Positions 14 through 55,787 of a stretch of 64,000 nt of DNA are shown here, piece by piece. Positions within the stretch are counted from its first letter, which is position 1. Each line of letters opens with the position of its first letter. A program made the position numbers and the translations under genes. The stretch covers positions 336 to 64,335 of the forward strand of contig JBDRVE010000002.1 in assembly GCA_039801725.1 (NCBI GenBank), written 5' to 3'. The stretch comes from a candidate division WOR-3 bacterium (GTDB taxonomy: Bacteria; Hydrothermota; Tepidihabitantia; Tepidihabitantales; DTDR01). The notes beneath the pieces were generated by a model. The model was not told the origin of the DNA, searched no databases, and saw only the letters and a program-made list of their open reading frames with translations.

Positions 14-376
14 TCATAGGATAATACTAAAAAGGTCAATCCTTAATTTTTCCATAATCTCTTTATTTAAGCCTTTTGCTTCCCATTTACTTTCAGTAAT
101 CGCAACAAGTTTATAAAGCATAATACCCGAATATTTATTAGTAAGTCGCCAGATTTCCTTAACATAAGAGAAATAATATAGATATTGGGTAGGTATTGTA
201 TCTGGATGGGAATCCAAGATTGCCTTTATTTTGGTATCCAAGGAAGTGAGTTCCTGGTATTTTGGGATTACATTCTCAATCATCTGTTCTTTTAAGGCAT
301 CGTATCTTTTCTTATTAATTTCTGGTTCTAATTTAGCGATATATTTATTAATTCTTTGATAGGCGTTTCTTACCAT
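14..376 (-). CDS. hypothetical protein (120 aa)
   Basis: Complete ORF. On the minus strand AAAGGAGG lies 5 nt upstream of the ATG at 376. No recognisable family motifs. Confidence 0.5.
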   Translation of the reverse strand: MVRNAYQRINKYIAKLEPEINKKRYDALKEQMIENVIPKYQELTSLDTKIKAILDSHPDTIPTQYLYYFSYVKEIWRLTNKYSGIMLYKLVAITESKWEAKGLNKEIMEKLRIDLFSIIL

Positions 377-451
377 AATATCCTCCTTTTTATATAAATT
401 AAGTGGTGAAGGGCCATAGGCTCTTCTCCCTTACATATATATAACGGAAAA

Positions 452-478
452 GAGTGGCAAAAGGTTACCACTTTTTTT
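452..478 (+). terminator. Hairpin (AGTGG-n10-CCACT) followed by a T7 run in the leader upstream of mgtA; candidate intrinsic terminator/attenuator
   Basis: Read directly in the sequence: agagtggcaaaaggttaccacttttttt. No plus-strand gene ends here, so an attenuator role is inferred. Confidence 0.35.
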
Positions 479-605
479 AATTCATTTTGCGACAAATTAC
501 AAAAACCATTTATTATTTACTTTTATAATATTTTGACAAAAAGATAGAGATAATTAAAATTATAGCGAAATTGAAAGGAATTTTATATTCTATATATAAA
601 AAGAT

Positions 606-3134
606 ATGGCGGAAAAGGAGATAAAGCCATTCTGGAATAAAGAACCTACGGAAGTTTTGAAAGAACTCAATACAGATAACGAAGGTCTCACGAGTGTTGA
701 AGCAGCCCAACGTATTAAGATATATGGTCCCAATGTTTTAAAGCCTTCAAAAAGACTTACCACTCTTTCTCTTTTTCTTTCCCAATTTAAAAGTCCGATT
801 ATTATTCTTCTTATTCTTGCAGTTATTTTATCTTTTTTTCTTAAAGAATTTACCGATGCGATAATAATCCTCATAATTGTCATCGCCAGCGGTATACTTA
901 GTTTTATTCAAGAGAAGAATGCCCAAGATGTGATTGCCAAACTTCTCGCTATTGTCCAAGTAAAAACCAAAGTCTTGCGTGATAAAAAGCCGGTTGAAAT
1001 TCCGGTAGAAGATGTTGTTCCTGGTGATATTGTCCTTCTTGGTGCGGGTGATATTGTTCCTGGTGACTGTTTAGTTTTGCAATCTAAAGATCTTTTTGTT
1101 AATGAAGCAATCCTAACCGGTGAAACATTTCCGGTAGAAAAGGAACCAGGTATTATTCCAGCCGATACACCGTTAGCCCACCGTACCAATTCATTATTTA
1201 TGGGTACTCACATTGTTAGCGGAAGTGCCCAAGCATTGGTTGTCTATACTGGTCGTTCCACCGAATTTGGTAAGGTTTCCGAGCGTTTAAAGCTCAAACC
1301 TCCGGAAACGGAATTTCAAAGAGGAGTTAATAGGTTTGGTTTCTTTTTAATGGAAGTAACTTCTTTGTTCGTTATTATAATCTTTGGTATGAATGTTTAT
1401 TTGAAAAAACCGGTGCTCGATTCTTTTCTTTTTGCTTTGGCACTGGCAATTGGCTTTACTCCTCAACTCTTGCCGGCAATCATAAGCATCAATTTAGCGC
1501 ATGGTGCCAAAGGAATGGCAAAAAAGAAGGTTATTGTCAAAAAACTTGCTTCGATAGAAAATTTTGGCAGTATGAATATTCTCTGTTCGGATAAAACTGG
1601 TACCTTGACAGAAGGGATGGTTCAAGTAAAAAAGGCAATTGATATTGAAGGTAGAGAAAGTGAAAAAGTTCTTTTTTATGCGTATCTTAACGCCTTTTAT
1701 CAAACGGGATTAAAAAATCCTATTGATGAAGCCATATTGAATTTTAAAAAATTTTCTCTTGCCAGTTGTAAAAAACTGGATGAAGTTCCTTATGATTTTA
1801 CTCGCAAACGGTTAAGTATCTTGGTACAAATAGAAAATGAAGTGATAATGATTACCAAAGGAGCAATTTCTAATATTTTAGAAATTTGCTCAAAAGCGGA
1901 GATGTCGGATGGAAAGATTGTTGAGATTAGCACGGTTTATCCCCTTATTGAAGAACGTCTAAATGAATTTAACAGAAATAGTTTTCGTTTTCTCGGTATT
2001 GCCTATCGGAAAATGAACGAAGATAGAACTATTTCCCAAAAAGATGAAACAGGTATGATTTTTCTTGGTTTTCTTGCTTTTTTCGATCCGCCTAAAAAGG
2101 ATGTTGCCCAAACTATAAGGAAGTTAAACAGATTAGGGCTCTCTCTGAAAATTATAACTGGCGACAATAAGCAGGTGGCGATAAATGTTGCTAAACAGAT
2201 TGGATTAAAAGAACCGAAGGTCCTAACCGGTAAAGAACTTCAGCAGATAGTAGATGAGGCATTGCTGGTAATAGCGCCGGATATTAACATTTTCGCCGAA
2301 GTGGAGCCCAGTCATAAAGAACGGATTGTGTTAGCTCTTAAAAAACTGGGGAATGTTGTTGGCTATATGGGCGATGGTATAAATGACATATCAGCACTGC
2401 ACACTGCCGATGTTGGTATATCTGTAGATAGTGCAGTGGATGCTGCCAAGGAAGCAGCCGATATTGTTCTTTTGGAAAAAGACCTCAACGTATTATTAGA
2501 GGGTGTGCATCACGGTCGTTTAACCTTTGCCAATACACTAAAATATATTTTTATGGCAACAAGTGCTAATTTCGGTAATATGTTCAGTATGGCAGGAGTT
2601 TCTTTATTTTTACCCTTTCTTCCGCTCTTACCCAAACAGGTTTTACTTACCAATCTTTTGACCGATTTTCCCGAAATGACTATTGCTACTGATAATGTGG
2701 ATAAGGAAATGATTGAAACTCCTCAACGTTGGAATATAAACTTTATCCGTCGGTTTATGATTATTTTTGGTTTGATAAGTTCAATCTTTGATTATCTCAC
2801 TTTTGGAGTCCTTCTCTTTCTTCTTCACGCATCAACCGAACAATTTCGTACTGGTTGGTTTGTGAAATCGGTTGTATCAGCAGCACTTATTGTGCTTGTT
2901 ATAAGGAGCCGTAGACCTTTCTTTAAAAGTTTGCCGGGAAGATATCTCTTGTTGGCAACCAGTTTAATTATGTTGCTAACCATTATCCTGCCTTGGTTGC
3001 CGATTGGGAAACTTTTTGGTTTTGTCGGTTTACCAATTTCTTTTATTTTTGTCTCATTTATTATACTGGCTCTTTATGTGATTACTGCCGAAATAACAAA
3101 ATACCTTTTCTATCGAAAGATAAACAAAATTTGA
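606..3134 (+). CDS. mgtA: Mg2+-importing P-type ATPase (MgtA-type, P3B)
   Basis: Has the DKTGTLT phosphorylation motif. The TM4 segment TPQLLPAIISINLAHGA...VIVKKLASIENFGSMNILCSDKTGTLT closely resembles MgtA. Also has the GDGINDISAL hinge. 842 aa, TGA stop. Confidence 0.85.
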   Translation: MAEKEIKPFWNKEPTEVLKELNTDNEGLTSVEAAQRIKIYGPNVLKPSKRLTTLSLFLSQFKSPIIILLILAVILSFFLKEFTDAIIILIIVIASGILSFIQEKNAQDVIAKLLAIVQVKTKVLRDKKPVEIPVEDVVPGDIVLLGAGDIVPGDCLVLQSKDLFVNEAILTGETFPVEKEPGIIPADTPLAHRTNSLFMGTHIVSGSAQALVVYTGRSTEFGKVSERLKLKPPETEFQRGVNRFGFFLMEVTSLFVIIIFGMNVYLKKPVLDSFLFALALAIGFTPQLLPAIISINLAHGAKGMAKKKVIVKKLASIENFGSMNILCSDKTGTLTEGMVQVKKAIDIEGRESEKVLFYAYLNAFYQTGLKNPIDEAILNFKKFSLASCKKLDEVPYDFTRKRLSILVQIENEVIMITKGAISNILEICSKAEMSDGKIVEISTVYPLIEERLNEFNRNSFRFLGIAYRKMNEDRTISQKDETGMIFLGFLAFFDPPKKDVAQTIRKLNRLGLSLKIITGDNKQVAINVAKQIGLKEPKVLTGKELQQIVDEALLVIAPDINIFAEVEPSHKERIVLALKKLGNVVGYMGDGINDISALHTADVGISVDSAVDAAKEAADIVLLEKDLNVLLEGVHHGRLTFANTLKYIFMATSANFGNMFSMAGVSLFLPFLPLLPKQVLLTNLLTDFPEMTIATDNVDKEMIETPQRWNINFIRRFMIIFGLISSIFDYLTFGVLLFLLHASTEQFRTGWFVKSVVSAALIVLVIRSRRPFFKSLPGRYLLLATSLIMLLTIILPWLPIGKLFGFVGLPISFIFVSFIILALYVITAEITKYLFYRKINKI

Positions 3135-8149: not shown

Positions 8150-8204
8150 AGTTTTTATTATAATAATTTATTGAATTTTTTGCAAATATTTTCTATAATT
8201 TGTT

Positions 8205-9842
8205 ATGAAAATTTTCTTAATAATTTCATTTTTGTTTAATTTAGAATATCAAGAGTCTTCTAACGGTTTGGTTCCTCCTACCTTAGAAGGTGGCAGATTG
8301 GAAATAGAAATGGTTGACATTAATTTTGATGGCAATTTAGATTTAATTTCTATTGGTGACCATGGTTCTCCTTATATCAATACTGATCAACACGGCATTA
8401 TGGTGTGGTTTGGCGATGGTCGAGGAAATTGGCAGGTTTATATGAATGGTGATTTTGGTTATGGAGGGATTGCCTATGGTGATGTGAATAATGATGGTTT
8501 TTTAGATGTTGGCTATGGGATGCATCACAATTATTCAAGGAATGATTTTGGTGACCAGTTATTAGAGGTGGCTTTGGGAGATGGAACAGGCAGAAATTGG
8601 ATTCCTTGGGATGATAGTTTGGCAACCCATGGTCAAGATTGGGGAATGTTTTGTGTTGATTTTGCTGATGTTAATAATGATGGGCTTTTAGATATCGGTG
8701 CTAATTCTTTTGGTGCCGATGACGGAATTCATATTTATTTAAATTTGGGTAATGGAACTTGGCGAAGAAGTTTTGGTTTTATCGGTGGCAATTCCAATAT
8801 GGATTTCGTCTTTGGTGATATTAATAAAGATGGTAATATAGATTTTGCGGTTGCTCATCAATATGGTAGTGTCTATTTTGGAGACGGAACTGGTAATTTT
8901 GTTTTAGCCCACCGTAATTTACCTTCTCCAGGGCTTGTTGGTTATTATAGTGTATCTTTAAGCGATGTAGATAATGACGGTGGTATGGATTTAGGATTTA
9001 TTAATCCGCAAGGTGGTATTGAAGTTTGGATTTTTAATGAAGAAGGAGATAGTTGGGAAAATTTTTCTGGCAATTTACCATCTTCGGGTTCTTATCAGAG
9101 AATACAACTTTTTGATATGAATTGCGACGGTTTTATTGATGTTATTGCCCAAGGTAATGGAGTTTTGAAAATATATTTAGGTAATGGCAGAGGCAATTGG
9201 CAGGAAACAGTAACGATTAATACTCCCTCTCCGGGAACCGGACAAGAATTAAAAGTCGGTGGCGATTGTGACCATAATGGTTATCCGGATATAATTTTAG
9301 TAACGCGAGAAGGAACTTGGCCCAATTATCGAAATCGGGCAAGATTTTTTAAAGAGACATCAATACCAGAAAATTTAAATATCTTTCCAGTTTTTCCTAA
9401 AGGTTATGAAATATTTCAACCTAATTCAGTTAATTTTATTAGGTGGCTCTCGGCTGTACCCAATCATCCCCAAAACCCCTCTTTTGTAAAAATTGAGTTT
9501 TCTGCTAATGGATCTAATGGACCTTTTATTACTCTTACCGATTCTTTTCCTAATACTGGTTTTTATCAATGGCAAATTCCCAATATTATAAGTAATAACT
9601 GCTATCTTAAGTTTACTTTATTTACTGCCACCGATACTGTTTCGGCATTAACTAACCGACCTTTCGCCATAGGTATCACTAGCGATATTAAAGATTATAA
9701 AGATGGTAAAATAAAAAGGAAAAATTTTGAAACGGCAAAGACTTTTAATATTACAGGTCAAGAGGTTAAAAAAAATCAGAAAAAAGGAATATATTTTGTT
9801 AAGGAAAATAAAAAGTTTAAAAAATTGGTTATTATCAAATAA
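8205..9842 (+). CDS. secreted FG-GAP/VCBS-repeat protein with a type IX secretion-like C-terminal sorting domain
   Basis: Signal peptide. At least seven Dx[DN]xDGxxD repeats (DVNNDGFLDVG, DVNNDGLLDIG, DINKDGNIDFA and others). C-terminus NITGQEVKK..GIYFVKENKKFKKLVIIK resembles a T9SS C-terminal domain. Confidence 0.6.
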   Translation: MKIFLIISFLFNLEYQESSNGLVPPTLEGGRLEIEMVDINFDGNLDLISIGDHGSPYINTDQHGIMVWFGDGRGNWQVYMNGDFGYGGIAYGDVNNDGFLDVGYGMHHNYSRNDFGDQLLEVALGDGTGRNWIPWDDSLATHGQDWGMFCVDFADVNNDGLLDIGANSFGADDGIHIYLNLGNGTWRRSFGFIGGNSNMDFVFGDINKDGNIDFAVAHQYGSVYFGDGTGNFVLAHRNLPSPGLVGYYSVSLSDVDNDGGMDLGFINPQGGIEVWIFNEEGDSWENFSGNLPSSGSYQRIQLFDMNCDGFIDVIAQGNGVLKIYLGNGRGNWQETVTINTPSPGTGQELKVGGDCDHNGYPDIILVTREGTWPNYRNRARFFKETSIPENLNIFPVFPKGYEIFQPNSVNFIRWLSAVPNHPQNPSFVKIEFSANGSNGPFITLTDSFPNTGFYQWQIPNIISNNCYLKFTLFTATDTVSALTNRPFAIGITSDIKDYKDGKIKRKNFETAKTFNITGQEVKKNQKKGIYFVKENKKFKKLVIIK

Positions 9843-35117: not shown

Positions 35118-38099
35118 TTAAAAATAAAGTCGCGAAGAGAAATTAATTTTAACCTCTTGCTCTTTAAATCCTTCTTTTAGATAGTTAAATTCCCAGGTAA
35201 AAGAGAGATTTTGGTTGAGATTTTTGCTAAGTAAAATGGAAAAATTATAAGAAAATCCTTTGGGTTCATAATAAGCTAATTCTAAGGGCAAAATTTCTTT
35301 GGGGTAAATTCGATAGATTATTTCTAAAAAGGTAGTTAAATAGAGATTTTTTAAGATTTCGTTATTTTTTTCTAAAGTGAGACTGGTTTTTTTAATTAAA
35401 TAATCTTTTCTAAATGGTAGAAAATATTGATAATAAATAAAGAAGATACCTGGTTTTAAGTTTAAATTATAATTTTCTTTTAATTCCCATAAATTAGAAA
35501 ATCCATAAGTTTTTCCTTTTTGATAATAAAATTCGCCTTTTCTCTTTTCCTCCTTTTCAAATTGGAGAACCTGTGTAAGACTTAATGATTTTGATAGTTC
35601 TTTTTTAAGAGTAAGGAGATTTTGTACCCCTTTATTTTTGGGATTTTCGTATATTAGATCTTTATTTTCTTTTTGATAATAATTTATTTTGTAATTTATC
35701 AGAAAATTTTCTTTGATATAATAATCGGTCAGGAATTGGCAATCTAAATTTTTAGGATAAGTAAAATTGGAAGAAAAACTTATTTTTAACTTTTTTATTG
35801 GCAACCAACAAAAACTGTGATTAAATTCGGCTTTGGAAATTCTTTTCCCTTTTCTTAAAGGAATAATTTCTTTTAAATATTCACCAAGAGAATCAGGATA
35901 ATATTCATTAGTTATCGTATCTTTTGAATAATTACCTTCCCCTTTTTTCACTTTAACAAATCTTATCTCTTTAATAACTTCTTCTTCGTTAGTAAATTTT
36001 TTAGAAAAACTAAATTGGAAAACATTTTTAAAAGAATAATTAAAATCAAAATCAGAAAAAAAGGAGTTTTCAAAAAAACCAATGATAAAAGAGGCTTTGG
36101 GATTATTTTGATTGGTGATACCCAATTTAGTAATTTTCTTTTTATTTAAATGATTTTTTTCTGTTTCCCTTTCATAAGTTAAAAAAAATTTACTTTCCTT
36201 AAAATAAAAATTGATACCCCAGCAATGGGTTAAAAAATAATTATTAGTATCCTTTCGGTAAGTAAAAGAATAGGTTGGATTAAAAGAATGGTAGGTTGGT
36301 GATGTGACAAAAGAAAAGATATTTCTATTGTAATAATCCTTCTTTAAAGAAATTTCATTGAAAAAGAAGTTAAATTTACTAACTCCAAAATAATCCCAGT
36401 TTTTTTCCTTTTTTATCAATTCTAATTTATTAAGAAAACTTAAACTTTTAACAGGCGAAAAATTTATTTGAAAAGATGTTCTATTTTTCAAAGGGAAATT
36501 AAAGAATTCTTCATTTTTTAATTGAGAAAGAATTTGGTAATTTTTAAATAGGTGAAGATTTTTAAAAGATAAAAAGATTTTTTCGCTTTGATAGGAAAAA
36601 GCAAAATTTGTTCCGTAACCATAACAATTTGTATCACCATAGGGTGAAAAAATATTTTCATCTTTTTTATTTACCATTCCACCAACTTGAATATTTAAAT
36701 TTTCATTAATCGGTATTTCCAAATTAATTGAAGTAAAAAGATTTTCTTTTGGTAAATCTATTTTAGAGTAGGGAAGATATTTTCCCTTGTTTTTACCAAC
36801 ATAATAATAACAATTTTTTATATTATCATAATCATAATCTCCTAAACTTTCACCAACAAAGGTAAAATTTACCAGATAACTACCATTATTTTCGCCGACA
36901 TAGAAAAATATCTCACCCTCTTTTTCATAATCACCCTTATTTTTGCCAACATAGCGAAAAGAATTTATGTAAGCCTTTGCTGTATCGTTGCCAATTTTGG
37001 TAAGATAGTTTTTTATTTCCTTATCAAAAAATTCTCTTTTATTCTTATCCTTTTCCCAATAATAACTTATATTAGTTTTTATTGGCAGGCGAGTAGTCAA
37101 AAGAGTTAAACAATAGTTATCTTTTTCGTAAATTTCTTCTTCGTATAAAAAATCTATTTCAATAAGATTGCGGGAGGTAATGATCCAACGATTAGTAAAA
37201 CTTATAAAACCAAATTCGTAATCAATTAAATAATCTTCATTATTACCCCTTTTTAACAGTTTGCCATCTAAATATACCCTCTCACTATTTGGTAAGATTT
37301 TTATCGATTTATCCTTTTTTAGATAGTAAGGTCCTTGGATAAAATCTTTACCATAAAATTGTATCTTTTCATATTTAAAAGGAGTTGTTAAATAATGAAA
37401 ATAAAGGGTTTCATAAAGATTTGTTTGAAAAAAAGATGCTCCTATACCTTGAGAAGAAAGTCTTCCAAAATGGGAAAAATCTATTTCTTTACCTTGATTT
37501 CCCCAAGTTAAAGAAAGGCTTTTTGTTTTCATTTTCAAATAAGAATTGTCCATCTCTTTTACTGATAAACCCTCTTCTTTATTTTCTTTGCCATTAAAGA
37601 AGCCTTCAAAATTTATTTCATCCACATTACCATTTAAGGAGAAATTTGTTTGCTGATTAAGATTTATCCCTTCTTTATTGTGATAATTTAATTTGATCTC
37701 TTTTTCTCCTTCTAAAATAATATCATTAAAACTGGTATTAAAAGAAGTATCAGTTATTAAAGGAGAGATAGCAGAAAGGGAATCAGATTCTATTTTCTTT
37801 ATAATAGGAGGTGATAGAAAGGGGATTGAAAAAGGCAAATAAAAATAGATAATTTTAAGGGTACAGGGAAGTAAAGATGGCAACTTTTTTATCTCAATGA
37901 CCCCTTTTTCATAATTAATAAAATAACCATCTTTTTTAACAAATTCTTTTTGAAAATAAAGGGTTTCTGAATTTTTTATAATTGGATAATTCTTTAGATA
38001 AATTGTTAAATAATTATTATTTATATTATTTATTATAAAAGTCTCTTCCCTTTTCAAATTGAAGAAGAGATAAAAACAGAAGAAAAAAAGGTTCATCAA
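35118..38099 (-). CDS. large (993 aa) N/K/Y-rich secreted protein, putative outer-membrane beta-barrel, with internal YVGKNKGxY-type repeats
   Basis: Hydrophobic N-terminus. C-terminal ...RLYF (terminal Phe, typical of an OMP beta-signal). Repeats YVGKNKGDY / YVGENNGSY / FVGESLGDY / YVGKNKGKY. No family assignable. Confidence 0.45.
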   Translation of the reverse strand: MMNLFFFCFYLFFNLKREETFIINNINNNYLTIYLKNYPIIKNSETLYFQKEFVKKDGYFINYEKGVIEIKKLPSLLPCTLKIIYFYLPFSIPFLSPPIIKKIESDSLSAISPLITDTSFNTSFNDIILEGEKEIKLNYHNKEGINLNQQTNFSLNGNVDEINFEGFFNGKENKEEGLSVKEMDNSYLKMKTKSLSLTWGNQGKEIDFSHFGRLSSQGIGASFFQTNLYETLYFHYLTTPFKYEKIQFYGKDFIQGPYYLKKDKSIKILPNSERVYLDGKLLKRGNNEDYLIDYEFGFISFTNRWIITSRNLIEIDFLYEEEIYEKDNYCLTLLTTRLPIKTNISYYWEKDKNKREFFDKEIKNYLTKIGNDTAKAYINSFRYVGKNKGDYEKEGEIFFYVGENNGSYLVNFTFVGESLGDYDYDNIKNCYYYVGKNKGKYLPYSKIDLPKENLFTSINLEIPINENLNIQVGGMVNKKDENIFSPYGDTNCYGYGTNFAFSYQSEKIFLSFKNLHLFKNYQILSQLKNEEFFNFPLKNRTSFQINFSPVKSLSFLNKLELIKKEKNWDYFGVSKFNFFFNEISLKKDYYNRNIFSFVTSPTYHSFNPTYSFTYRKDTNNYFLTHCWGINFYFKESKFFLTYERETEKNHLNKKKITKLGITNQNNPKASFIIGFFENSFFSDFDFNYSFKNVFQFSFSKKFTNEEEVIKEIRFVKVKKGEGNYSKDTITNEYYPDSLGEYLKEIIPLRKGKRISKAEFNHSFCWLPIKKLKISFSSNFTYPKNLDCQFLTDYYIKENFLINYKINYYQKENKDLIYENPKNKGVQNLLTLKKELSKSLSLTQVLQFEKEEKRKGEFYYQKGKTYGFSNLWELKENYNLNLKPGIFFIYYQYFLPFRKDYLIKKTSLTLEKNNEILKNLYLTTFLEIIYRIYPKEILPLELAYYEPKGFSYNFSILLSKNLNQNLSFTWEFNYLKEGFKEQEVKINFSSRLYF

Positions 38100-38160
38100 A
38101 TAAAATTTTAATTTTATATAACTTTAAAGTCAATTAATTAAATATATTCTACTATTTCCC

Positions 38161-49327: not shown

Positions 49328-50311
49328 TTAAGATATTTTTAATTTGATTGCCTTTTTGGGGCATTGGTAATAGCATTCTAAACATCTAATACAGTCGGTT
49401 TGGTTAGCATTTTCATAGACATTTATATCGGTGGGGCAGACTTTTATACAGATATTACATTTACCACATTTTTCTTTATCAACTTCTAAATGGAAGAGGC
49501 TTATCTTATTAAAGAGAGAATAAATCGCACCAATAGGACATATTACTTTGCAAAATATTCTTTTTATAAAGATTGCCAGGATAAAGATAATTATTAATAT
49601 CAAAATCTTTAGATAGAAAAATAACCCAACCATTGTTTTTAAACTATTCTCTGGGTCGTATAATACTAAAGGGATTCCTGCTTCTAATGTTCCTTGGGGA
49701 CAAAGTTTACAAAACCAAGGTTCATTGGTAAAAAAGACAATAAAGGTTGCCAAAAATATGAGAAAGATATATTTGAGAAAAGTCAAATCAATTTCTTTTA
49801 TACGGATTTTTAAGATTATATCTAAGAGAAGACCGATAATTGTTGAAGTTAAAATTATAACAATTTTAATGATTAAAGAAAGATAGTTAAATTTAAGCCA
49901 GATTAAAAAATAAGAAGAGAGAAATAGTATAATGGTAAATAAAGGGGTAATTTTAGGAAGAGAGATTTTTTTCTTACTTATTTTAAAAAGTAGGTCTTGG
50001 AAAAGACCAAAAGGACATAGCCAACCACAAGCCATTCTGCCAACAAAGGCACCAATAATAAAGAACAAACCCAAGGTATAAAAAGGAAAATCTTTAATTA
50101 TTATAGAATGTTGATAGGCACCCAATGGACAAGAAAACCAAGTGGTTGGAGTTGACCAGCAGTTTAATATCGGCACCAAAAAACTTTTTAAATATCCGGT
50201 ATAAATTAATGTCTTTTCAAAAAATACTAAAATATAACTGTTGATTAATATTGTAAAAATTATTTGGGAGATTCTAAAAGGTCTCATCCTAAACCCATAC
50301 AAGAAAGGCAA
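49328..50311 (-). CDS. membrane polyferredoxin (NapH/MauN/CcoG-like 4Fe-4S protein)
   Basis: TM helices, CGWLCPFGLFQD, C-terminal CGKCNICIKVCP and CIRCLECYYQCP. Confidence 0.65.
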   Translation of the reverse strand: MPFLYGFRMRPFRISQIIFTILINSYILVFFEKTLIYTGYLKSFLVPILNCWSTPTTWFSCPLGAYQHSIIIKDFPFYTLGLFFIIGAFVGRMACGWLCPFGLFQDLLFKISKKKISLPKITPLFTIILFLSSYFLIWLKFNYLSLIIKIVIILTSTIIGLLLDIILKIRIKEIDLTFLKYIFLIFLATFIVFFTNEPWFCKLCPQGTLEAGIPLVLYDPENSLKTMVGLFFYLKILILIIIFILAIFIKRIFCKVICPIGAIYSLFNKISLFHLEVDKEKCGKCNICIKVCPTDINVYENANQTDCIRCLECYYQCPKKAIKLKIS

Positions 50312-50417: not shown

Positions 50418-51878
50418 TTATATTCTCACTTGTAAGGAAGTTTTTATTCCGCTGAAAGGTGCCTCATAACGACAGACACCACCAGAGCAAACAAGTCCGC
50501 CCCTTTCTTGGCCAATTCTTATCCGCCAAGTTATGTTTTGGGTAATAAAGAAGGTTCCTTCTAATAATAGCCATTTGTCTTCATAGTCATATTTGGGAAC
50601 CTTTTTTGTTGTTCTTTGGTAACTAATATTAAATATGAAATAGGGATTATATTCATATTCTAAATTTATTCCCCAATCCTTGTATTTTAAAGTATCATCA
50701 GAAGAAAAATTCAAAGGTATTTCTAAACCAAAGGTATGATTATTGAAAGATAATTTAGCCTCATTAGTAAATTTTAATTCTTCGGTTATATCTACTTTTG
50801 CTTCAATTCCTTTTTTCTTATGGTATTCAAAGGTGAAGGTATTATTAAAATCTTCATTCTTTTTTAGATTAATTTTATTAATAAATTCTTTTAGATATTT
50901 ATCTTTTTTATTAGTTTGTAAATAGCCATAACTACCCTCATAATTTAGAAAATCAAAAGGTGTGAAATTTAGTGAGATGCCAAATCCTTTTTCGTCTCTT
51001 CCACGGTTGATTGATATTCCTTCTTTACTTGGTGTGGGCACATCGTTATAACGATATCCTTCACCACCAAAATCAATACTATCATATTTCATTCCTTCTA
51101 AACTGAGCCCAAAACCAGTAAAAGTGAAAGAGGTTACTAAATAATGGCCATATCCTTTTTTTCTACCACCAATTACTTCACGGGTAGAAAGTTTTTCAGC
51201 AAATTCATAATAAAAGTCAAAAAAATTAGAAGTAAAAGAGATACTTGGACCAAATATTTCAGTAAAGGCACGAGGAGTTATATCCTTTTCTTTATTTAAC
51301 CGTACATATCTTCCACCAATTTCTAAAAAAGAGAAAGGATAGATTATAATTTCTCCACCTCTTAATTGGTCAGTGGTGTCATTTTCATATTGGTATCTAT
51401 TCTCTTGGAAGATGATATTCTTCATTTTTCCGGCAAAGAGGGTGATATCAGATTTTAAAATATGAGATATTGCCCGACCACCGAATAGCACCTTATCATA
51501 ACGAAAATCCTCATTAAGATAAGAACGGAAAGTAAGACTACGACCAAAGACTTGGTAAAAATTTCCAAGCAAAAATTCAATCTTCGGATGGGAATATTCA
51601 AAATTGTAATAATATTCTTTTAAACTCTTTTTAGGTAAACTTGGTTGATAAAGGAAAATACCTGCTCGTAAGTAAATATTTTCATAGTTAATTAAAAACC
51701 GCGACTTGCCCTCAAAATGGTCAGAGAGTTTGAATTCAGGTTCTTTTTTTGTCCAAAACCAATATTCGCCTTTAATTTCACCGGAAATGTTTAACTTCTT
51801 TTCAACCGGCATTTCTTCCTGGGAATAGAGATAAAAGAAAAGAAAGAAAAATAAGAAAAATTTACTTTTTCTCTTCAT
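50418..51878 (-). CDS. hypothetical secreted / outer-membrane protein (486 aa)
   Basis: Signal peptide. Alternating aromatic/polar pattern suggests a beta-barrel. Confidence 0.4.
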   Translation of the reverse strand: MKRKSKFFLFFFLFFYLYSQEEMPVEKKLNISGEIKGEYWFWTKKEPEFKLSDHFEGKSRFLINYENIYLRAGIFLYQPSLPKKSLKEYYYNFEYSHPKIEFLLGNFYQVFGRSLTFRSYLNEDFRYDKVLFGGRAISHILKSDITLFAGKMKNIIFQENRYQYENDTTDQLRGGEIIIYPFSFLEIGGRYVRLNKEKDITPRAFTEIFGPSISFTSNFFDFYYEFAEKLSTREVIGGRKKGYGHYLVTSFTFTGFGLSLEGMKYDSIDFGGEGYRYNDVPTPSKEGISINRGRDEKGFGISLNFTPFDFLNYEGSYGYLQTNKKDKYLKEFINKINLKKNEDFNNTFTFEYHKKKGIEAKVDITEELKFTNEAKLSFNNHTFGLEIPLNFSSDDTLKYKDWGINLEYEYNPYFIFNISYQRTTKKVPKYDYEDKWLLLEGTFFITQNITWRIRIGQERGGLVCSGGVCRYEAPFSGIKTSLQVRI

Positions 51879-52383
51879 TTATTATTTCTTCGATAACTCT
51901 TATAAATTTCTTTTCATCGCCCTTTTTATAACCCCGAGAAACTAACCGAATATTTCCCTTTTTATCAAGAATAAAACTTGTTGGCATCGTTGAACCGACA
52001 CCAAAAAGTTCTCTCACTTTTCCATCAGGGTCTAATAAGATTTCGTATTTCCATTTCTTTCCTTTCACAAAGGACTTTACATTATTTATTGCCCTTGGTC
52101 CATCTTCAGAAATAGCCAATACTTTAAGTCCTAATGTTTCATATTGGTCATAAATCTTTTTAAAGGCATCCAGTTCTTGAATACAAAGTTTACACCACAG
52201 TGCCCAGAAACTAATAAAAATTGGTCCTTTCCCCAAAAGAGAGTCAAGATAGATTTTTTCTTTATTGATGTTATAAAGAGAAAAACTTGGCGCTTTCTTA
52301 TAAGATTTTAAGGTATCAGTTTTTTCTTGGGGATATATGAGGAAAAATAAAATTAAGATAAAAATTAAATTCCTTAATTTCAT
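51862..52383 (-). CDS. periplasmic TlpA/ResA-like thiol-disulfide oxidoreductase
   Basis: Signal peptide. FISFWALWCKLC (WCxxC). Thioredoxin fold. Confidence 0.75.
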   Translation of the reverse strand: MKLRNLIFILILFFLIYPQEKTDTLKSYKKAPSFSLYNINKEKIYLDSLLGKGPIFISFWALWCKLCIQELDAFKKIYDQYETLGLKVLAISEDGPRAINNVKSFVKGKKWKYEILLDPDGKVRELFGVGSTMPTSFILDKKGNIRLVSRGYKKGDEKKFIRVIEEIINEEKK

Positions 52384-53108
52384 CTTTCACCTCCCAATTT
52401 TAGACTTTTACTTTGAATGATTTCTAAGTTATTAACATTTTGGATAAGGGCAACCACATTTAGATTTCTTTGATTTAAAGAAATATTAAAAGTAGTATCA
52501 AAGGTATCAAAAATTGTGGCATTAAAATTGATACCTTCTAAAGGAAAAAGATTTTCTCTTAAAACCCAATTGTTTTCAAAAAAAGGAGCTATTTCCGAAA
52601 ATAAACTATCTTCGGTAAGAAAGACAAATAACCGATATTCTTGGGGAGTTGGATTTTCGCTATTAGAAATAATTTTAAGATTTATGGTGCTATTATTTAA
52701 TGGATTTAAAAGAATTTGATAATAAGTACTTTCTGAAAGGGCATTTAAAATATAGTAATTATAGACTGAGTCAATATTTGTTATTTCTTCTAAGAAGACT
52801 TTATATCTTCCATTAAAAACGGCGGTTGGTATTCGGTTTATTTGGTATAAATCATAACGGTTTTCACATATTTCGTTTTGGAATTCGTCGCCTAAATGAT
52901 ACGCAATTATTGATAAACTATCTTGATATTCTTCTTTTAAATTTAATAAAGACTGCTCCGCAGCCATACAGAAAGGTCAACCTGCTTGAGTAAAGATTTC
53001 AACCAAAACTTTCTTATTTCCTTTTTTAAATTCAATTTTTGGTGCTTCGGAACAAGAAATTAAAAAAACAAAGTTTAACGTACTGAGTAAGAAAAATAGT
53101 CTATTCAT
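52380..53108 (-). CDS. thioredoxin-fold lipoprotein with in-frame UGA at the active site (candidate selenoprotein, UxxC)
   Basis: ATG 53108. Lipobox FLISC. VLVEIFTQAG-TGA(52979..52977)-PFC, then the same frame continues into the 195-aa ORF; RIPTAVFNG cis-Pro-like motif about 50 aa later. TGA is otherwise a stop in this genome. Confidence 0.5.
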
Positions 53109-53140: not shown

Positions 53141-54304
53141 TCAAGAAGTTTTATATAAAGGTGAAATTTCTCTCAGTTTTTTTACGATGGATGGAAATAC
53201 TTCTAAAAGATAGTTAATATCTTCTTCTTTATTATCAATTCCCAAGGTGAAAAGAATGGAACCTTGGGCTAAAATGGGTGGTATGCCCATTGCCAAAAGA
53301 ACATGAGATGCTTTTAACTGTTTAGAAGAACAAGCCGAACCAGAGGCACAAGCAATGCCATATTGGTTTAAATATAAAACCATTGCCTCACCTTCTATAT
53401 ATTCTACACAGAAACTAACGTGGTTAGGTAAACGATTCTCCGGATGTCCAGTTAAGTAAACATTTTCAACCATTCTTGGCAATTCTTGTATCAACTTATT
53501 TCTTAATCTTTTTAACCTTTCGTTTCTTTCTTCCATTTCTTTTATGGCAATTTCGTAGGCCTTTGCCATACCAATAATACCAATTAAATTCTCTGTTCCT
53601 GCTCGTCGATTATTTTCTTGAATACCGCCTTCAATCAATGGTTGGATTTTTGTCCCCTTTTTGATATATAATAAAGCAACACCTTTTGGACCATAAAAGG
53701 TATGGGAAGAAATAGTATAAAGGTTAACGTCTAATTCCTTTAAATCAATTTTTAATTGACCAGCCGCTGCCACACCGTCAGAGTGGAAAATAATATTATT
53801 CTCTTTGGCTATTTCAGCAATTTCTTTTATTGGTTCAATTGTGCCTACCTCATAATTGGCATGCATTATTGAAATCAAAATTGTTTCCTTTTTTATCTTC
53901 TTTTTTAACTCATCTAAATCAACAGTGCCGTATTTATCAACGGGCAGATAAGTTATTTCAAATCCCATTTTCTCTAACCTTTTTGCTGGTTGAATTATTG
54001 AGGAATGTTCAATTGCTGAAACGATAATATGGTTGCCTTTATCTTGATTGGCAAAGGCGACTCCCTTTATTGCCCAGTTATTACTTTCGGCACCGGAAGA
54101 GGTAAAGCAGATTTCCGAAGGTGAAACATTTAAAAGAGAGGCAATTTTTTCTCTTGCTTCTTCTAATAATTTTTTTGCTTCAAAACCAAAATAATGGGAA
54201 CTTTGCGGATTACCAAATACCTCCTTTTGTAGATTTTCCATTAAGGACAAAACTTCCGGATGGATAGGAGTGGTTGCTTGGTGGTCCAGATAGACTCTTT
54301 TCAT
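53141..54304 (-). CDS. cysteine desulfurase (NifS/IscS family; possible Sec lyase)
   Basis: VYLDHQATTP N-terminus, PLP Lys region SSHTFYGPKG, active-site Cys in SGSAC. Confidence 0.8.
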   Translation of the reverse strand: MKRVYLDHQATTPIHPEVLSLMENLQKEVFGNPQSSHYFGFEAKKLLEEAREKIASLLNVSPSEICFTSSGAESNNWAIKGVAFANQDKGNHIIVSAIEHSSIIQPAKRLEKMGFEITYLPVDKYGTVDLDELKKKIKKETILISIMHANYEVGTIEPIKEIAEIAKENNIIFHSDGVAAAGQLKIDLKELDVNLYTISSHTFYGPKGVALLYIKKGTKIQPLIEGGIQENNRRAGTENLIGIIGMAKAYEIAIKEMEERNERLKRLRNKLIQELPRMVENVYLTGHPENRLPNHVSFCVEYIEGEAMVLYLNQYGIACASGSACSSKQLKASHVLLAMGIPPILAQGSILFTLGIDNKEEDINYLLEVFPSIVKKLREISPLYKTS

Positions 54305-54792
54305 GGTCCTAAATGTTCTAAGGAAAATTTTTTATATGCTTCATAAGAAGTGAAACTGGTTAATAAATCATATTCGGTCTTTATAATTTGATAATGAGAC
54401 TTTTCCATAGAAGCAAGATAAATCAACAATCTTTTGCTATTTTCATCATTAATCAATATTGAATTTTCCCGATAGAATTTCTCTGAAACCTCTTCCGCTT
54501 CCATCGCTGCTTCTAAAAGAGATTCTAACGATAATTTTTCAACCATATCAATTGCTGGTAAGGGGGTAAAGCCTTTTTCGGGCAATCTGATTTTTTGTTT
54601 AGGAAATTGATTTTTAAATACGTTTCTTAATAGTTTTTCATGTTTTTTCTCTTCATTTTTTAGAAAGTTTAATTTCTTTTCTAAGACTTTATTTTCTACT
54701 ATTTTTTGTAATTTATTATAAAATTGATAAGCCTCAATTTCTGATTTTATCGCCTTTTGTAATATTTCTAAGGGAGTTAAGGCTTCTTCCAT
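54301..54792 (-). CDS. ferritin-like / rubrerythrin-like diiron-domain protein (paralog 3 of 3)
   Basis: Two half-domains with E...ExxH-type motifs (EIEAYQFY, EEKKHEKL; EAEEVSEKFY, MEKSHYQI). Confidence 0.55.
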   Translation of the reverse strand: MEEALTPLEILQKAIKSEIEAYQFYNKLQKIVENKVLEKKLNFLKNEEKKHEKLLRNVFKNQFPKQKIRLPEKGFTPLPAIDMVEKLSLESLLEAAMEAEEVSEKFYRENSILINDENSKRLLIYLASMEKSHYQIIKTEYDLLTSFTSYEAYKKFSLEHLGP

Positions 54793-54810
54793 ATCTCCTC
54801 CTTTTTATTT

Positions 54811-55311
54811 TTAATATTCTTCCAAGGTAAATTCCCGAAAATCAAACCAAAAACCGGTTTTTGTTAAAGAATCGATTTCGGCTTGAATTAATTTATAATG
54901 ACCCTCTTCAATCTCTTTTAATCTTTGCCAGATTTTTTTAGCAATCTCGTCACTGCTCTCTTTTTCTTGTTTTTGATAGAAATCAATACTTTTGCTTTCT
55001 AATGATAAAGCCATTTGTAAGATATTTAATTCATTCAAATCCGATACCTTTTTCTCTTTGGGTAATAAGGGTTTTAAATTGATAACCGTTTTTTCAATCT
55101 CCGTTAAAGGAATTTCTACATCCTTAAATTTTTTTTCTTTTTCAAAATATTCTAATTCTCTTTCTAAGATCTCAATATGTTCAAATTCATCCATTGCTAA
55201 ACGGATAAAAAGGTTTTTCCCTTTTAGGTCTTCAATCTGGTGTCCAAAACGAAGATAGGAAGAGAGTGCTTCTTTTTCCAAATTGATTGCTAATTGAAAG
55301 ATTTCTTTCAT
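54811..55311 (-). CDS. ferritin-like / rubrerythrin-like diiron-domain protein (paralog 2 of 3)
   Basis: LEKEALSSY, DEFEHIEIL; ESKSIDFY, EEGHYKLI. Confidence 0.55.
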   Translation of the reverse strand: MKEIFQLAINLEKEALSSYLRFGHQIEDLKGKNLFIRLAMDEFEHIEILERELEYFEKEKKFKDVEIPLTEIEKTVINLKPLLPKEKKVSDLNELNILQMALSLESKSIDFYQKQEKESSDEIAKKIWQRLKEIEEGHYKLIQAEIDSLTKTGFWFDFREFTLEEY

Positions 55312-55787
55312 TTAATTTCTCCTTTTATAGTTTCTAATTTTTTAATATGTGCCTTTTCTTCATTAATTAACTTTAACACCACAGGTGTTTCTTCTTGGGC
55401 AACTAAATTTAATATTTCATAATAAAAGAGCAATGTCTCCTTTTCAAAAGCAATTGCCAAGTCAATCAGCTCTTTTTCGTTTTTGGCTCTTTCCATTAAA
55501 TTTAAAACTTTATCTTCACCAGTAAAGAAATGGGAGTCGGTGATTACTTTTAAATACAGTTTTACTTCTTCCCAATCAAAAGGTAAGGTATAAGGTGTTG
55601 TTTTTAATCGATTTTTAATTTCATTAAAAGCTTCCATATGTCTCAACTCTTCGCCTGCTAAGAAATCAAAGAGTTGTTTCAATTTCTCTGCTTTGGTCTT
55701 TTCTTTTGATTTTGAATAAAACTGATAACCACTTTTTTCAATCTGGATTGCCATTTCTAAAACCTCGTTTATTGAATAAAAGACCAT
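55308..55787 (-). CDS. ferritin-like / rubrerythrin-like diiron-domain protein (paralog 1 of 3)
   Basis: IEKSGYQFY, GEELRHMEAF; EKETLLFY, EEKAHIKKL. Confidence 0.55.
   Translation of the reverse strand: MVFYSINEVLEMAIQIEKSGYQFYSKSKEKTKAEKLKQLFDFLAGEELRHMEAFNEIKNRLKTTPYTLPFDWEEVKLYLKVITDSHFFTGEDKVLNLMERAKNEKELIDLAIAFEKETLLFYYEILNLVAQEETPVVLKLINEEKAHIKKLETIKGEIK

What the first reader, a model, noticed from the sequence alone, without database searches (positions are those of the whole stretch)
52380..53108. Hidden candidate selenoprotein: thioredoxin-fold lipoprotein with UGA at the CxxC position (UxxC)
The six-frame track reports only a 195-aa ORF starting MAAEQS. Reading the same frame upstream gives a lipoprotein signal peptide (MNRLFFLLSTLNFVFLISC...), then a beta-strand VLVEIFT and QAG-[TGA]-PFC, and the frame continues without interruption into the listed ORF. 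The TGA therefore sits exactly where thioredoxins carry the first Cys of WCGPC. A cis-Pro-like RIPTAVFNG follows about 50 residues later, as in the thioredoxin fold. In this genome TGA is a bona fide stop (mgtA, galE, murD end in TGA), so a genome-wide recoding is unlikely. That leaves selenocysteine insertion or a very recent nonsense mutation. A 6-bp stem-loop (GGCUGC-GGA-GCAGUC) begins exactly 11 nt after the UGA, the spacing used by bacterial SECIS elements, although the loop is not canonical. The next gene is a TlpA-like CxxC thioredoxin, and a NifS-like desulfurase (a potential Sec lyase) lies immediately upstream.
Basis: partly seen in the sequence, partly recalled or inferred. Interest (0 to 1): 0.78.

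Follow-up and report, generated by a model that had tools for sequence, protein, structure and literature searches.

The report
Unannotated selenocysteine lipoprotein gene in WOR-3
The in-frame TGA is almost certainly a selenocysteine codon in a membrane-anchored, thioredoxin-like redox protein of an uncultured WOR-3 bacterium; public annotation cuts the gene in two, but it belongs to an already known kind of selenoprotein.

Summary
On the minus strand, 53108-52380 is one reading frame: a lipoprotein signal peptide, VLVEIFTQAG-TGA-PFC, then the listed 195-aa ORF. TGA is a normal stop in this window (15 of 46 long ORFs).

The selenocysteine reading is strongly supported:
- **Not an error or recent mutation.** The same TGA is found in 12 contigs read base by base, from independent assemblies, including a strain only 93% identical. 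Twelve other WOR-3/Stahlbacteria genomes (35-53% GC) also carry it.
- **Cysteine counterparts.** Cys-containing homologues place CxxC exactly on U-P-F-C.
- **Conserved hairpin.** A stem with an invariant GC-GGA-GC top sits at the same place in all 14 sequences. Five of its 8 pairs show compensatory changes, and it fits the published bacterial SECIS model.
- **Machinery in relatives.** One relative has tRNA-Sec 3.9 kb from its ortholog. A metagenome contig with a near-identical tRNA-Sec carries selA and selB.

The Sec machinery of the window's own genome could not be reached. The NifS link is not supported, because NifS is not a conserved neighbour. The conserved unit is Sec gene, ResA/TlpA-like gene, DUF6029 gene, NapH-like gene. 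The closest characterised relative is P. gingivalis HBP35. NCBIfam's Omp28-related selenoprotein model is matched only weakly, so this is a new subfamily of a known kind.

The parts
52380..53108 (-). Complete selenoprotein gene: 242 sense codons, Sec at codon 44, own stop TGA at 52380-52382. N-terminal thioredoxin-like domain followed by a C-terminal Omp28-type beta-sandwich.
   Evidence: Translation. With U replaced by C, Pfam Omp28 matches residues 85-239 at E 9e-7, and several thioredoxin-type families match residues 29-100 weakly. NCBIfam Omp28_seleno scores E 7e-14 and lipoprot_Omp28 E 9e-13. The family profile hits thioredoxin-fold PDB entries.
53052..53108 (-). Lipoprotein signal peptide with lipobox L-I-S-C (Cys19), followed by SEAP.
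   Evidence: Read from the sequence. The motif C-S-(E/D/K/R)-A-P is conserved after a hydrophobic stretch in all 12 orthologs.
52977..52979 (-). In-frame UGA, the proposed selenocysteine codon (residue 44).
   Evidence: The same TGA was read in 12 contigs of this species, including a 93% identical variant. It is also present in 12 other WOR-3/Stahlbacteria genomes. It aligns with the first Cys of CxxC in Cys homologues and with C48 of HBP35.
52968..52979 (-). U-P-F-C redox motif, directly after the strand VLVEIFT.
   Evidence: The profile alignment to 1fo5 (CPHC), 1nho (CPYC), 2axo (CASC) and HBP35 (CGYC) places their CxxC on these four codons.
52949..52967 (-). SECIS-type hairpin. Core stem GGCUGC/GCAGUC with loop GGA lies at 52951-52965. 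An A-U pair outside a U.U mismatch extends it to 52949-52967.
   Evidence: dG -7.4 kcal/mol. The helix is in the same register in 14 sequences, with 86.6% of cells paired against 18-54% when the partner is slid. Five of 8 pairs show double changes, and 0 of 500 shuffles reach the observed score. It is built from rare codons: GCG 9%, GAG 19%, CAG 21%. The covariance model finds no second copy in 255 kb.
52827..52829 (-). Pro94 in RIPTAVFNG, the likely cis-proline of the thioredoxin fold.
   Evidence: Invariant in alignments A1 and A2. It aligns with vPTIVING of thioredoxin 1fo5.
51862..52383 (-). ResA/TlpA-like periplasmic thiol:disulfide oxidoreductase (WCKLC). Its ATG overlaps the Sec gene's stop (ATGA).
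   Evidence: Pfam AhpC-TSA E 8.5e-25 and NCBIfam ResA E 1.7e-25. It lies directly downstream of the ortholog in all 12 related genomes.
50418..51878 (-). DUF6029 protein (486 aa), third gene of the conserved unit. Function unknown.
   Evidence: Pfam DUF6029 on record. No NCBIfam match. Same position in all 12 related genomes, 32-39% identity.
49328..50311 (-). NapH/MauN-like membrane polyferredoxin (Fer4_5), fourth gene of the conserved unit.
   Evidence: Pfam Fer4_5. NCBIfam napH_ E 4.7e-17, below its cut-off. Present downstream in the 11 related loci long enough to show it.

Best explanation
Window 53108-52380 (minus strand) is a single gene for a selenocysteine-containing lipoprotein.

**Translation (inferred).** The UGA at codon 44 is read as Sec. 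The hairpin that starts 11 nt downstream has a GC-GGA-GC top. It is the expected binding site for SelB carrying GTP and Sec-tRNA(Sec), which would deliver Sec to the ribosome.

**Export and anchoring (inferred from sequence).** The product is exported through its type II signal peptide, lipidated on Cys19 and anchored in the cell envelope.

**Chemistry.** The N-terminal thioredoxin-fold domain carries a U44-P-F-C47 centre that cycles between a selenol/thiol and a selenenyl-sulfide form. A C-terminal Omp28-type beta-sandwich follows it. Homology to HBP35 indicates thiol-disulfide oxidoreductase activity. The substrate is unknown.

**Partners (inferred from conserved gene order only).** The protein probably works with the three genes that always follow it: a ResA/TlpA-like periplasmic reductant, a DUF6029 protein and a NapH-like membrane iron-sulfur protein. 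The last could feed electrons from the membrane to the envelope.

**What is shown and what is not.** Shown: the conserved UGA, Sec/Cys pairing, the covarying hairpin, the fold, and the synteny. Inferred: actual Sec insertion, protein location, electron path and substrate.
For: 1. **One frame, normal stop elsewhere.** There is a single frame with one TGA, and TGA is otherwise a normal stop.
2. **Not an error or a recent mutation.** The 195-aa protein is on 21 contigs from NCBI, JGI, ENA and Logan assemblies. The 10 read carry the identical split. Both contigs of a 93% identical strain keep the TGA. Changes on both sides are mostly or half synonymous: 3 synonymous to 2 nonsynonymous upstream, 16 to 14 downstream.
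3. **Conserved across species.** Twelve WOR-3/Stahlbacteria genomes of 35-53% G+C have TGA at the same codon. The ortholog family is about 30% identical to the window protein. A conserved lipobox and the strand xFFT lie upstream, in frame.
4. **Sec/Cys pairing.** Cys homologues have CxxC at that spot: P0007 CPNC, P0012 CGYC, P0016 CTYC, P0021 CPAC, P0024 CLYC.
5. **Independent lineages.** Two further lineages of the same superfamily also carry TGA there (L013-L016; L021/L038/L039).
6. **Covarying hairpin.** 86.6% of cells are paired, 21 cells show double changes, and 0 of 500 shuffles reach the score. The Ala GCG and Glu GAG codons in the loop are invariant in 14 of 14 sequences although rare. 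A Gln-to-Arg change at column 26 goes with a U-to-C change at the third codon position of column 18.
7. **Fits the SECIS model.** The hairpin meets the model quoted in PMC13188914. Orthologs fold at -8.7 to -13.8 kcal/mol.
8. **Machinery in the lineage.** tRNA-Sec (Rfam RF01852, 77.5 bits) lies 3.9 kb from the ortholog in L021. Contig L037 has selA (552 bits), selB (324 bits) and a tRNA-Sec 95% identical to that of L021.
9. **Fold and active site.** Profile hits to 2axo, 1fo5 and 1nho align the CxxC and the cis-Pro. An AlphaFold model of Cys homologue P0042 best matches HBP35, PDB 5y1a (E 1.3e-11, TM 0.68), and the Omp28 domain 2r2c. HBP35 C48/C51 are needed for its thioredoxin activity (PMC2907840) and align with U44/C47.
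10. **Conserved gene order.** The same order is found in the related genomes.
Against: - No selA, selB, selD or tRNA-Sec was found in the roughly 83 kb of this organism's DNA that could be read, namely the window plus flanks of contig JBDRVD010000003.1.
- selD was not seen anywhere.
- In the window itself the hairpin is the weakest of the 14. Its -7.4 kcal/mol is 0.1 short of the model's -7.5 limit, and it has a U.U mismatch.
- One database relative (P0011) shows Trp at the Sec position. Its DNA could not be checked.
- There are no expression, proteomic or selenium-labelling data.
- The AlphaFold model is of a 27% identical homologue, and confidence is low right at the CxxC loop.
Confidence: 0.88

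Rival explanations
1. The TGA is a true stop. The locus is a pseudogene or a recent nonsense mutant, or two separate genes: a 43-aa peptide and a 195-aa Omp28-domain protein without a signal peptide.
For: Public annotation calls it that way. TGA is a normal stop in this genome. An ATG follows four codons after the TGA.
Against: The TGA is kept in 12 other species spanning 35-53% G+C, while the sequence on both sides stays conserved and in frame. A dead gene would drift. Cys homologues are single polypeptides. The 195-aa product would lack its signal peptide, the first strand and the active site. The start codon after the TGA is not conserved: orthologs have Ala, Trp or Ser there.
Confidence: 0.03
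2. The UGA is read through, but not as selenocysteine. It is read as Trp or Cys, by near-cognate or suppressor decoding helped by the downstream hairpin.
For: One relative in the protein database, P0011, has Trp at this position. The Sec machinery of this particular genome was not seen.
Against: The position is the nucleophilic Cys of a CxxC centre in all Cys homologues, so Trp would destroy it. The hairpin has the spacing and the G-containing loop of bacterial SECIS elements. tRNA-Sec, selA and selB occur in related WOR-3 DNA, and tRNA-Sec sits beside a paralog with the same UxxC. The Trp in P0011 may be a TGA translated with code 4 by a gene caller. This was not tested.
Confidence: 0.06
3. 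Sequencing or assembly error, or a lineage-wide reassignment of UGA.
For: None beyond the bare presence of an in-frame stop.
Against: The sequence is identical in the 10 contigs read, from independent assemblies in four archives. 15 of 46 long ORFs end in TGA, and no other gene in the window is split by TGA.
Confidence: 0.01

Closest known systems
HBP35 of Porphyromonas gingivalis (PDB 5y1a), a cell-surface thioredoxin-like hemin-binding protein
   Same: It has the same two-domain build, a thioredoxin-like domain plus an Omp28-type beta-sandwich. It is the best structural match of the modelled Cys homologue (E 1.3e-11, TM 0.68). Its active-site C48-G-Y-C51 aligns with U44-P-F-C47. Recombinant HBP35 reduces insulin, and the C48S/C51S mutant does not (PMC2907840). 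It is an envelope protein.
   Different: HBP35 uses Cys, not Sec. It is a type IX secretion cargo with a C-terminal sorting domain, whereas the window protein is a lipoprotein without that tail. The WOR-3 paralog in L021 does have the tail. Sequence similarity is remote: the profile E-value is 5e-4, over the N-terminal 50 residues only. Hemin binding was not tested here.
NCBIfam NF045500 'Omp28-related selenoprotein', listed as 'Hypothetical protein GOS_C', UxxC, in the selenoproteome review PMC13188914
   Same: It is an Omp28-related protein with a UxxC motif. It is the best NCBIfam match of the window protein, aligned over residues 30-237.
   Different: The score is 52 bits against a cut-off of 200, so the window protein is not a member of that equivalog. 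The WOR-3 paralog (43 bits) and the third lineage (68 bits) also fail. The model is 377 positions long. The window protein is 242 aa, and only model positions 37-267 are covered.
Sec-containing thioredoxin-fold oxidoreductases (Trx, Grx, DsbA-like, thiol:disulfide interchange, Prx-like selenoproteins)
   Same: They have a UxxC at the N-terminus of helix 1 of a thioredoxin fold and exist as Sec/Cys pairs. Many such families are listed as predicted selenoproteins (PMC13188914).
   Different: Here the domain is fused to an Omp28 beta-sandwich and carries a lipoprotein anchor. The gene sits in a conserved four-gene unit with ResA-like, DUF6029 and NapH-like genes.
Bacterial SECIS element, E. coli fdhF type and the bSECISearch consensus
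   Same: It is a hairpin inside the coding sequence just after the UGA. The stem starts 11 nt downstream, which from my own knowledge is the spacing required in E. coli fdhF. [quoted passage not shown]
   Different: The element is short, with a 6-8 bp stem and a 3-nt GGA loop, and no bulged U is evident. The window copy is 0.1 kcal/mol weaker than the model's energy limit. No Rfam family matches it.

Membership tests
Bacterial selenoprotein gene (SelB/SECIS-dependent UGA decoding) | In-frame UGA conserved among orthologs, with conserved coding sequence on both sides | tested here: met
   TGA is at the same codon in 14 of 14 sequences from 13 species or strains, with a conserved lipobox and xFFT strand upstream. 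The substitution pattern fits selection on both sides.
Bacterial selenoprotein gene (SelB/SECIS-dependent UGA decoding) | Homologues with Cys aligned to the UGA position (Sec/Cys pair) | tested here: met
   P0007, P0012, P0016, P0033, P0021 and P0024 have CxxC aligned to U-P-F-C. In a second lineage, P0042, P0024 and P0045 (Cys) pair with L013-L016 (TGA).
Bacterial selenoprotein gene (SelB/SECIS-dependent UGA decoding) | SECIS hairpin after the UGA: 3-9 nt loop, G in the first two loop positions, 16-37 nt spacing, MFE at or below -7.5 kcal/mol (model quoted in PMC13188914) | tested here: met
   The loop is GGA, the spacing is 17 nt and the stem is 6-8 bp. The helix covaries. Orthologs fold at -8.7 to -13.8 kcal/mol. 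The window copy folds at -7.4 kcal/mol and misses the energy limit by 0.1.
Bacterial selenoprotein gene (SelB/SECIS-dependent UGA decoding) | tRNA-Sec, SelA, SelB and SelD encoded in the same genome | not testable with these tools
   None was found in the window or in about 19 kb of flanks. The rest of the MAG could not be read. In relatives, tRNA-Sec is in L021, selA, selB and tRNA-Sec are in L037, and a SelB homologue (39% identical, tblastn only) lies beside the tRNA-Sec in L034. selD was not seen anywhere.
Bacterial selenoprotein gene (SelB/SECIS-dependent UGA decoding) | Selenium actually incorporated at the UGA | not testable with these tools
   This needs 75Se labelling or mass spectrometry.
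Thioredoxin fold (CxxC oxidoreductase) | Strand, then CxxC at the start of helix 1, then a cis-Pro before strand 3 | tested here: met
   The family profile hits 2axo (E 3.6e-6), 1fo5 (1.7e-5) and 1nho (1.9e-5), with the CxxC and the P-T motif aligned. P94 is invariant. The AlphaFold model of homologue P0042 shows strand 37-43, CxxC, helix 50-64 and strand 69-75, with low confidence at the loop itself.
Omp28 family (Pfam PF11551; NCBIfam NF033782 lipoprot_Omp28) | Match to the family model above its curated cut-off | tested here: not met
   PF11551 scores 29.3 bits against a cut-off of 34.9. NF033782 scores 48 bits against 150. The fold is nevertheless shared: the model of the homologue matches the Omp28 domain 2r2c with TM 0.71 normalised to the target. 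It is a remote relative, not a member by score.
NCBIfam NF045500 Omp28-related selenoprotein (GOS_C) | Score of at least 200 bits against the equivalog model | tested here: not met
   51.9 bits. Relatives score 43 and 68 bits.
Bacterial lipoprotein | Type II signal peptide with lipobox [LVI][ASTVI][GAS]C | tested here: met
   The signal ends ..FVFLISC, followed by SEAP. The Cys and the following S-(E/D/K/R)-A-P are conserved in all 12 orthologs. The consensus was recalled from my own knowledge, and no predictor was run.

The most novel reading that the evidence does not exclude
WOR-3/Stahlbacteria may carry a lineage-wide set of cell-envelope UxxC selenoproteins that public annotation misses entirely.
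- One is the lipoprotein studied here, always followed by ResA-like, DUF6029 and NapH-like genes.
- Another is a much larger family of HBP35-like proteins with a type IX secretion tail: 273 database relatives, the top 120 all cut off at the N-terminus.

Together they could form an undescribed selenium-based redox pathway, fed by a membrane iron-sulfur protein and reaching the outer surface.
Probability: 0.3. Interest if true: 0.65.

Novelty: new member of a known kind. Interest (0 to 1): 0.5.

Why it matters
The gene is annotated in GenBank MAGs as a 195-aa 'hypothetical protein', and the paralog family as truncated 'Omp28-related outer membrane protein'. The redox-active half of these proteins is therefore absent from public protein sets.

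Recognising the UGA as Sec has three consequences:
- It restores a full envelope oxidoreductase.
- It shows that this uncultured phylum uses selenium.
- It provides a well-defined, covarying SECIS element (UGA, 9-11 nt, 6-8 bp stem, GGA loop) that could be used to re-annotate many WOR-3 genomes.

It does not change what is known about how selenoproteins work.

Tried and rejected
- **Folding the window alone.** The 86-nt and 47-nt pieces after the UGA are no more stable than shuffles, so the window gives no proof by itself.
- **Rfam.** There was no match at gathering score or at E up to 10.
- The first alignment was too diverse for the genome scan.
- **Sec machinery in the window.** Ten large ORFs are housekeeping genes such as NrdD, pyrophosphatase, HflX and FolC. 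No other gene is split by TGA. tblastn with recalled E. coli SelA/SelD, and later with the L037 SelA/SelB, found nothing in the window or flanks.
- **Extending the source contig.** Only AspS/AsnS-type, GatCAB, ParAB and peptidase genes appeared.
- **Looking past the tRNA-Sec of L021.** The sister assembly's contig ends there.
- **Looking for the paralog in the window's own organism.** Amino-acid composition of the hits did not point to it. The best candidate, P0090, comes from another assembly.
- **NifS as a selenocysteine lyase partner.** Rejected, because it is not syntenic in relatives and scores far below the SclA model.
- **Literature.** Searches for Omp28 with selenoprotein and for WOR-3 with selenocysteine gave nothing relevant. 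The BSepDB supplements are not held.
Full report
**1. What is in the sequence**

On the minus strand, window 53108-52380 is one reading frame of 242 sense codons. It is interrupted by a single TGA at 52977-52979. It reads MNRLFFLLSTLNFVFLISC|SEAPKIEFKKGNKKVLVEIFTQAG-TGA-PFC-MAAEQS... The mechanical ORF list shows the two halves as a 43-aa and a 195-aa ORF in the same frame.

The window has 31% G+C. Of its 46 long ORFs, 15 end in TGA, 27 in TAA and 4 in TAG. No other gene is split by a TGA. UGA is therefore an ordinary stop in this organism.

Taken alone it is not impressive. Longer pieces fold no better than shuffles, and 5.5% of synonymous recodings do as well. It is, however, built from three consecutive rare codons: GCG 9%, GAG 19% and CAG 21% of their families.

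**2. Source, and exclusion of error or recent mutation**

The 195-aa product is a GenBank 'hypothetical protein' of candidate division WOR-3 MAGs, for example ABIK77_02280. It is found on 21 contigs from NCBI, JGI, ENA and Logan assemblies. The 10 that were read all carry the same 43-aa ORF, TGA and 195-aa ORF. The window corresponds to about 20.0-84.0 kb of JBDRVD010000003.1 in GCA_039801665.1.

A strain whose protein is 93% identical (L011, L012) keeps the TGA. Codon changes are 3 synonymous and 2 nonsynonymous upstream of the TGA, and 16 synonymous and 14 nonsynonymous downstream. That pattern is expected of a coding sequence under selection on both sides.

**3. Relatives**

*Search with the C-terminal part.* An exhaustive HMMER search with the 195-aa part returned two kinds of hit.
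- Full-length proteins in which a CxxC lies exactly on U-P-F-C: P0007 CPNC, P0012 CGYC, P0016 CTYC, P0033 CVYC, P0021 CPAC and P0024 CLYC.
- Proteins that begin precisely after that motif: P0009, P0014 and P0017.

*Genome scan.* A scan of one genome per species found 12 WOR-3/Stahlbacteria genomes with orthologs (L017-L028, 35-53% G+C; the family is about 30% identical to the window protein). Every one has TGA at the same codon. The preceding sequence is a conserved lipobox (C-S-E/D/K/R-A-P) and the strand (V/I)LxE(F/L/I)FT, and x-(F/Y)-C follows.

*Other lineages.* Two further lineages of the same superfamily carry TGA at the same spot.
- L013-L016 read TATW-TGA-xYC, and their Cys sisters read TATWCLYC.
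- A paralog with a type IX secretion tail reads YSEG-TGA-ASC and similar, in L021, L038 and L039.

This is the classical Sec/Cys signature.

**4. The RNA element**

*Pairing and covariation.* The 42 nt from the UGA align without gaps in all 14 sequences. Columns 13-20 pair with columns 24-31, around an invariant GC-GGA-GC top.
- 86.6% of cells form standard pairs, against 18-54% when the 3' partner is slid by 1-3 columns.
- Five of 8 pairs show changes on both sides, in 21 cells. The slid controls show 2-8 such cells.
- None of 500 shuffles reaches the observed pairing or covariation score.
- RNAalifold independently predicts the inner five pairs.

*Changes that cannot come from protein constraint.*
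- Whenever Gln (CAG) becomes Arg (CGN) at column 26, column 18, the third position of the codon two places upstream, switches from U to C.
- The Ala and Glu codons that form the loop are GCG and GAG in 14 of 14 sequences, even in 31-36% G+C genomes.

*Fit to the SECIS model.* The element fits the bacterial SECIS model quoted in PMC13188914. That model asks for a 3-9 nt loop, G in the first two loop positions, 16-37 nt between the UGA and the loop (17 here), and MFE of -7.5 kcal/mol or lower. Orthologs fold at -8.7 to -13.8 kcal/mol. The window copy, at -7.4, is the weakest.

*Specificity.* A covariance model built from the alignment finds no other copy in 255 kb of held sequence. No Rfam family matches.

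**5. Sec machinery**

*In the window's organism.* Nothing was found in the window: the only tRNA is tRNA-Arg, and ten large ORFs are housekeeping genes. Nothing was found in about 19 kb of flanking contig either. The rest of this genome could not be reached, so this test remains open for the window's own organism.

*In relatives.*
- L021, a WOR-3 MAG of 36% G+C, has a tRNA-Sec 3.9 kb upstream of its ortholog, immediately beside the UxxC paralog. ARAGORN and Rfam RF01852 both call it (77.5 bits against a gathering score of 47).
- A metagenome scan with that tRNA's anticodon and T arms found five contigs, all with tRNA-Sec.
- One of them, L037 (35% G+C), has a tRNA-Sec 95% identical to that of L021. 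It also carries selA (TIGR00474, 552 bits against a cut-off of 268) and selB (TIGR00475, 324 bits against 242).
- Another, L034, has a SelB homologue (39% identical, tblastn only) next to its tRNA-Sec.
- L038 repeats the arrangement of tRNA-Sec beside the paralog.

**6. What the protein is**

With U replaced by C, the N-terminal 100 residues hit several thioredoxin-type Pfam families weakly. Residues 85-239 hit Omp28.

The family profile matches three solved thioredoxin-fold proteins: 2axo (DUF1223), 1fo5 and 1nho. The CxxC and the proline of RIPTAVF align in each.

An AlphaFold model of the Cys homologue P0042 has a mean pLDDT of 73. Confidence is high in the beta-sandwich and low at the CxxC loop. 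It shows a thioredoxin-like domain followed by a beta-sandwich. Its best PDB match is HBP35 of Porphyromonas gingivalis, 5y1a (E 1.3e-11, TM 0.68). The Omp28 domain 2r2c also matches.

HBP35 is a cell-surface protein. Its recombinant form reduces insulin, and the C48S/C51S mutant does not (PMC2907840). Those two cysteines align with U44 and C47.

The signal peptide ends in L-I-S-C, a lipobox by the consensus I know, and the cysteine is conserved.

**7. Context**

In all 12 related genomes the ortholog is followed by a ResA/TlpA-like gene and a DUF6029 gene (44-51% and 32-39% identical to the window's). Where the locus is long enough, a NapH-like Fer4_5 gene comes next.

In the window the Sec gene's own TGA stop overlaps the ATG of the ResA-like gene, which suggests coupled translation.

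Neither the NifS-like gene nor the three rubrerythrin-like genes upstream are found in any related locus. The NifS-like protein also scores only 120 bits against the SclA selenocysteine-lyase model, whose cut-off is 525.

**8. Mechanism proposed**

*Shown:*
- a conserved UGA;
- Sec/Cys pairing;
- a covarying SECIS-type hairpin;
- a thioredoxin fold with the UGA at the nucleophilic position;
- conserved gene order.

*Inferred:*
- SelB binds the hairpin and inserts Sec at codon 44.
- The protein is exported and lipidated on Cys19.
- The U44/C47 pair cycles through a selenenyl-sulfide.
- Reducing power reaches it through the ResA-like protein, perhaps from the NapH-like membrane iron-sulfur protein.

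The role of DUF6029 and the substrate are unknown.

**9. Comparison with what is known, and novelty**

Thioredoxin-fold UxxC selenoproteins are numerous. An 'Omp28-related selenoprotein' model already exists as NCBIfam NF045500. The review PMC13188914 lists it as 'Hypothetical protein GOS_C', UxxC.

The window protein scores 52 bits against that model, whose cut-off is 200. The two other TGA-bearing lineages score 43 and 68 bits. None is a member. They are new subfamilies of a known kind.

What is new is practical rather than conceptual:
- an unannotated selenoprotein in an uncultured phylum;
- a cleanly defined SECIS;
- a conserved four-gene unit;
- a hint of a much larger truncated family. 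Of the 273 paralog relatives, the top 120 all lack the N-terminus, and DNA was checked in three.

**10. Verdict**

The remaining doubt is that the Sec machinery of this genome and the protein itself have not been seen. Interest is moderate: a solid, correctable annotation gap and a new subfamily, not a new principle.

Noticed in passing
L021 270-1322 (+), beside tRNA-Sec at L021 62-155 (-); also L038 about 220-1263 (-) and L039 about 1540-2613 (+): This is a second Omp28/HBP35-like gene with a type IX secretion sorting tail. It has an in-frame TGA at ..YSEG-U-ASC and its own hairpin, GCCAGU-AGUGU-ACUGGC, 15 nt after the UGA. A database search gave 273 relatives, and the top 120 all lack the N-terminus. 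It is probably a large, mis-annotated selenoprotein family in WOR-3.
   Followed up: partly
L013 9830-10555, L014 466-1203, L015 4181-4912, L016 2015-2746: A third lineage, of about 40% G+C and unknown taxon, has TATW-TGA-xYC where close relatives have TATWCLYC. It has a different downstream hairpin: a perfect 7-bp stem, CUCAGCC-AGUU-GGCUGAG, 27 nt after the UGA.
   Followed up: partly
protein P0011 (233 aa, from the representative search): This full-length relative reads FFTQDG-W-SYC, with Trp at the Sec position. It may be a TGA translated with genetic code 4 by a gene caller, or a real TGG. Its DNA could not be fetched.
   Followed up: no
L037 5762-6102; L018 2759-2861, 3788-3898, 5379-5487, 7931-8040: Three tandem units of about 115 nt lie in the selA-selB-tRNA-Sec contig. 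They recur as dispersed copies on both strands in a WOR-3-type MAG at 75-85% identity. The nature of the repeat is unknown.
   Followed up: no
window 49328-50311 (-): tblastn aligns only residues 1-106 and 177-327 of the NapH-like Fer4_5 protein to its orthologs. The window copy therefore seems to carry about 50-55 extra residues in the middle. Low-complexity masking is an alternative explanation.
   Followed up: no
window 54301-55787 (-) and 53141-54304 (-): Three tandem rubrerythrin-family genes (159, 166 and 163 aa) are followed by a NifS-like cysteine desulfurase, directly upstream of the selenoprotein gene. This block is found only in this species, not in the 12 related loci.
   Followed up: partly
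window 52380-52383 (-): The selenoprotein gene ends in TGA, and that stop overlaps the ATG of the ResA-like gene (ATGA). One mRNA therefore holds a UGA read as Sec and, 198 codons later, a UGA read as stop.
   Followed up: no
window 8199-9842 (+) and 35118-38123 (-): Two large ORFs (547 and 1001 aa) have no NCBIfam match at E 1e-5. The first has a weak FG-GAP Pfam hit on record.
   Followed up: no
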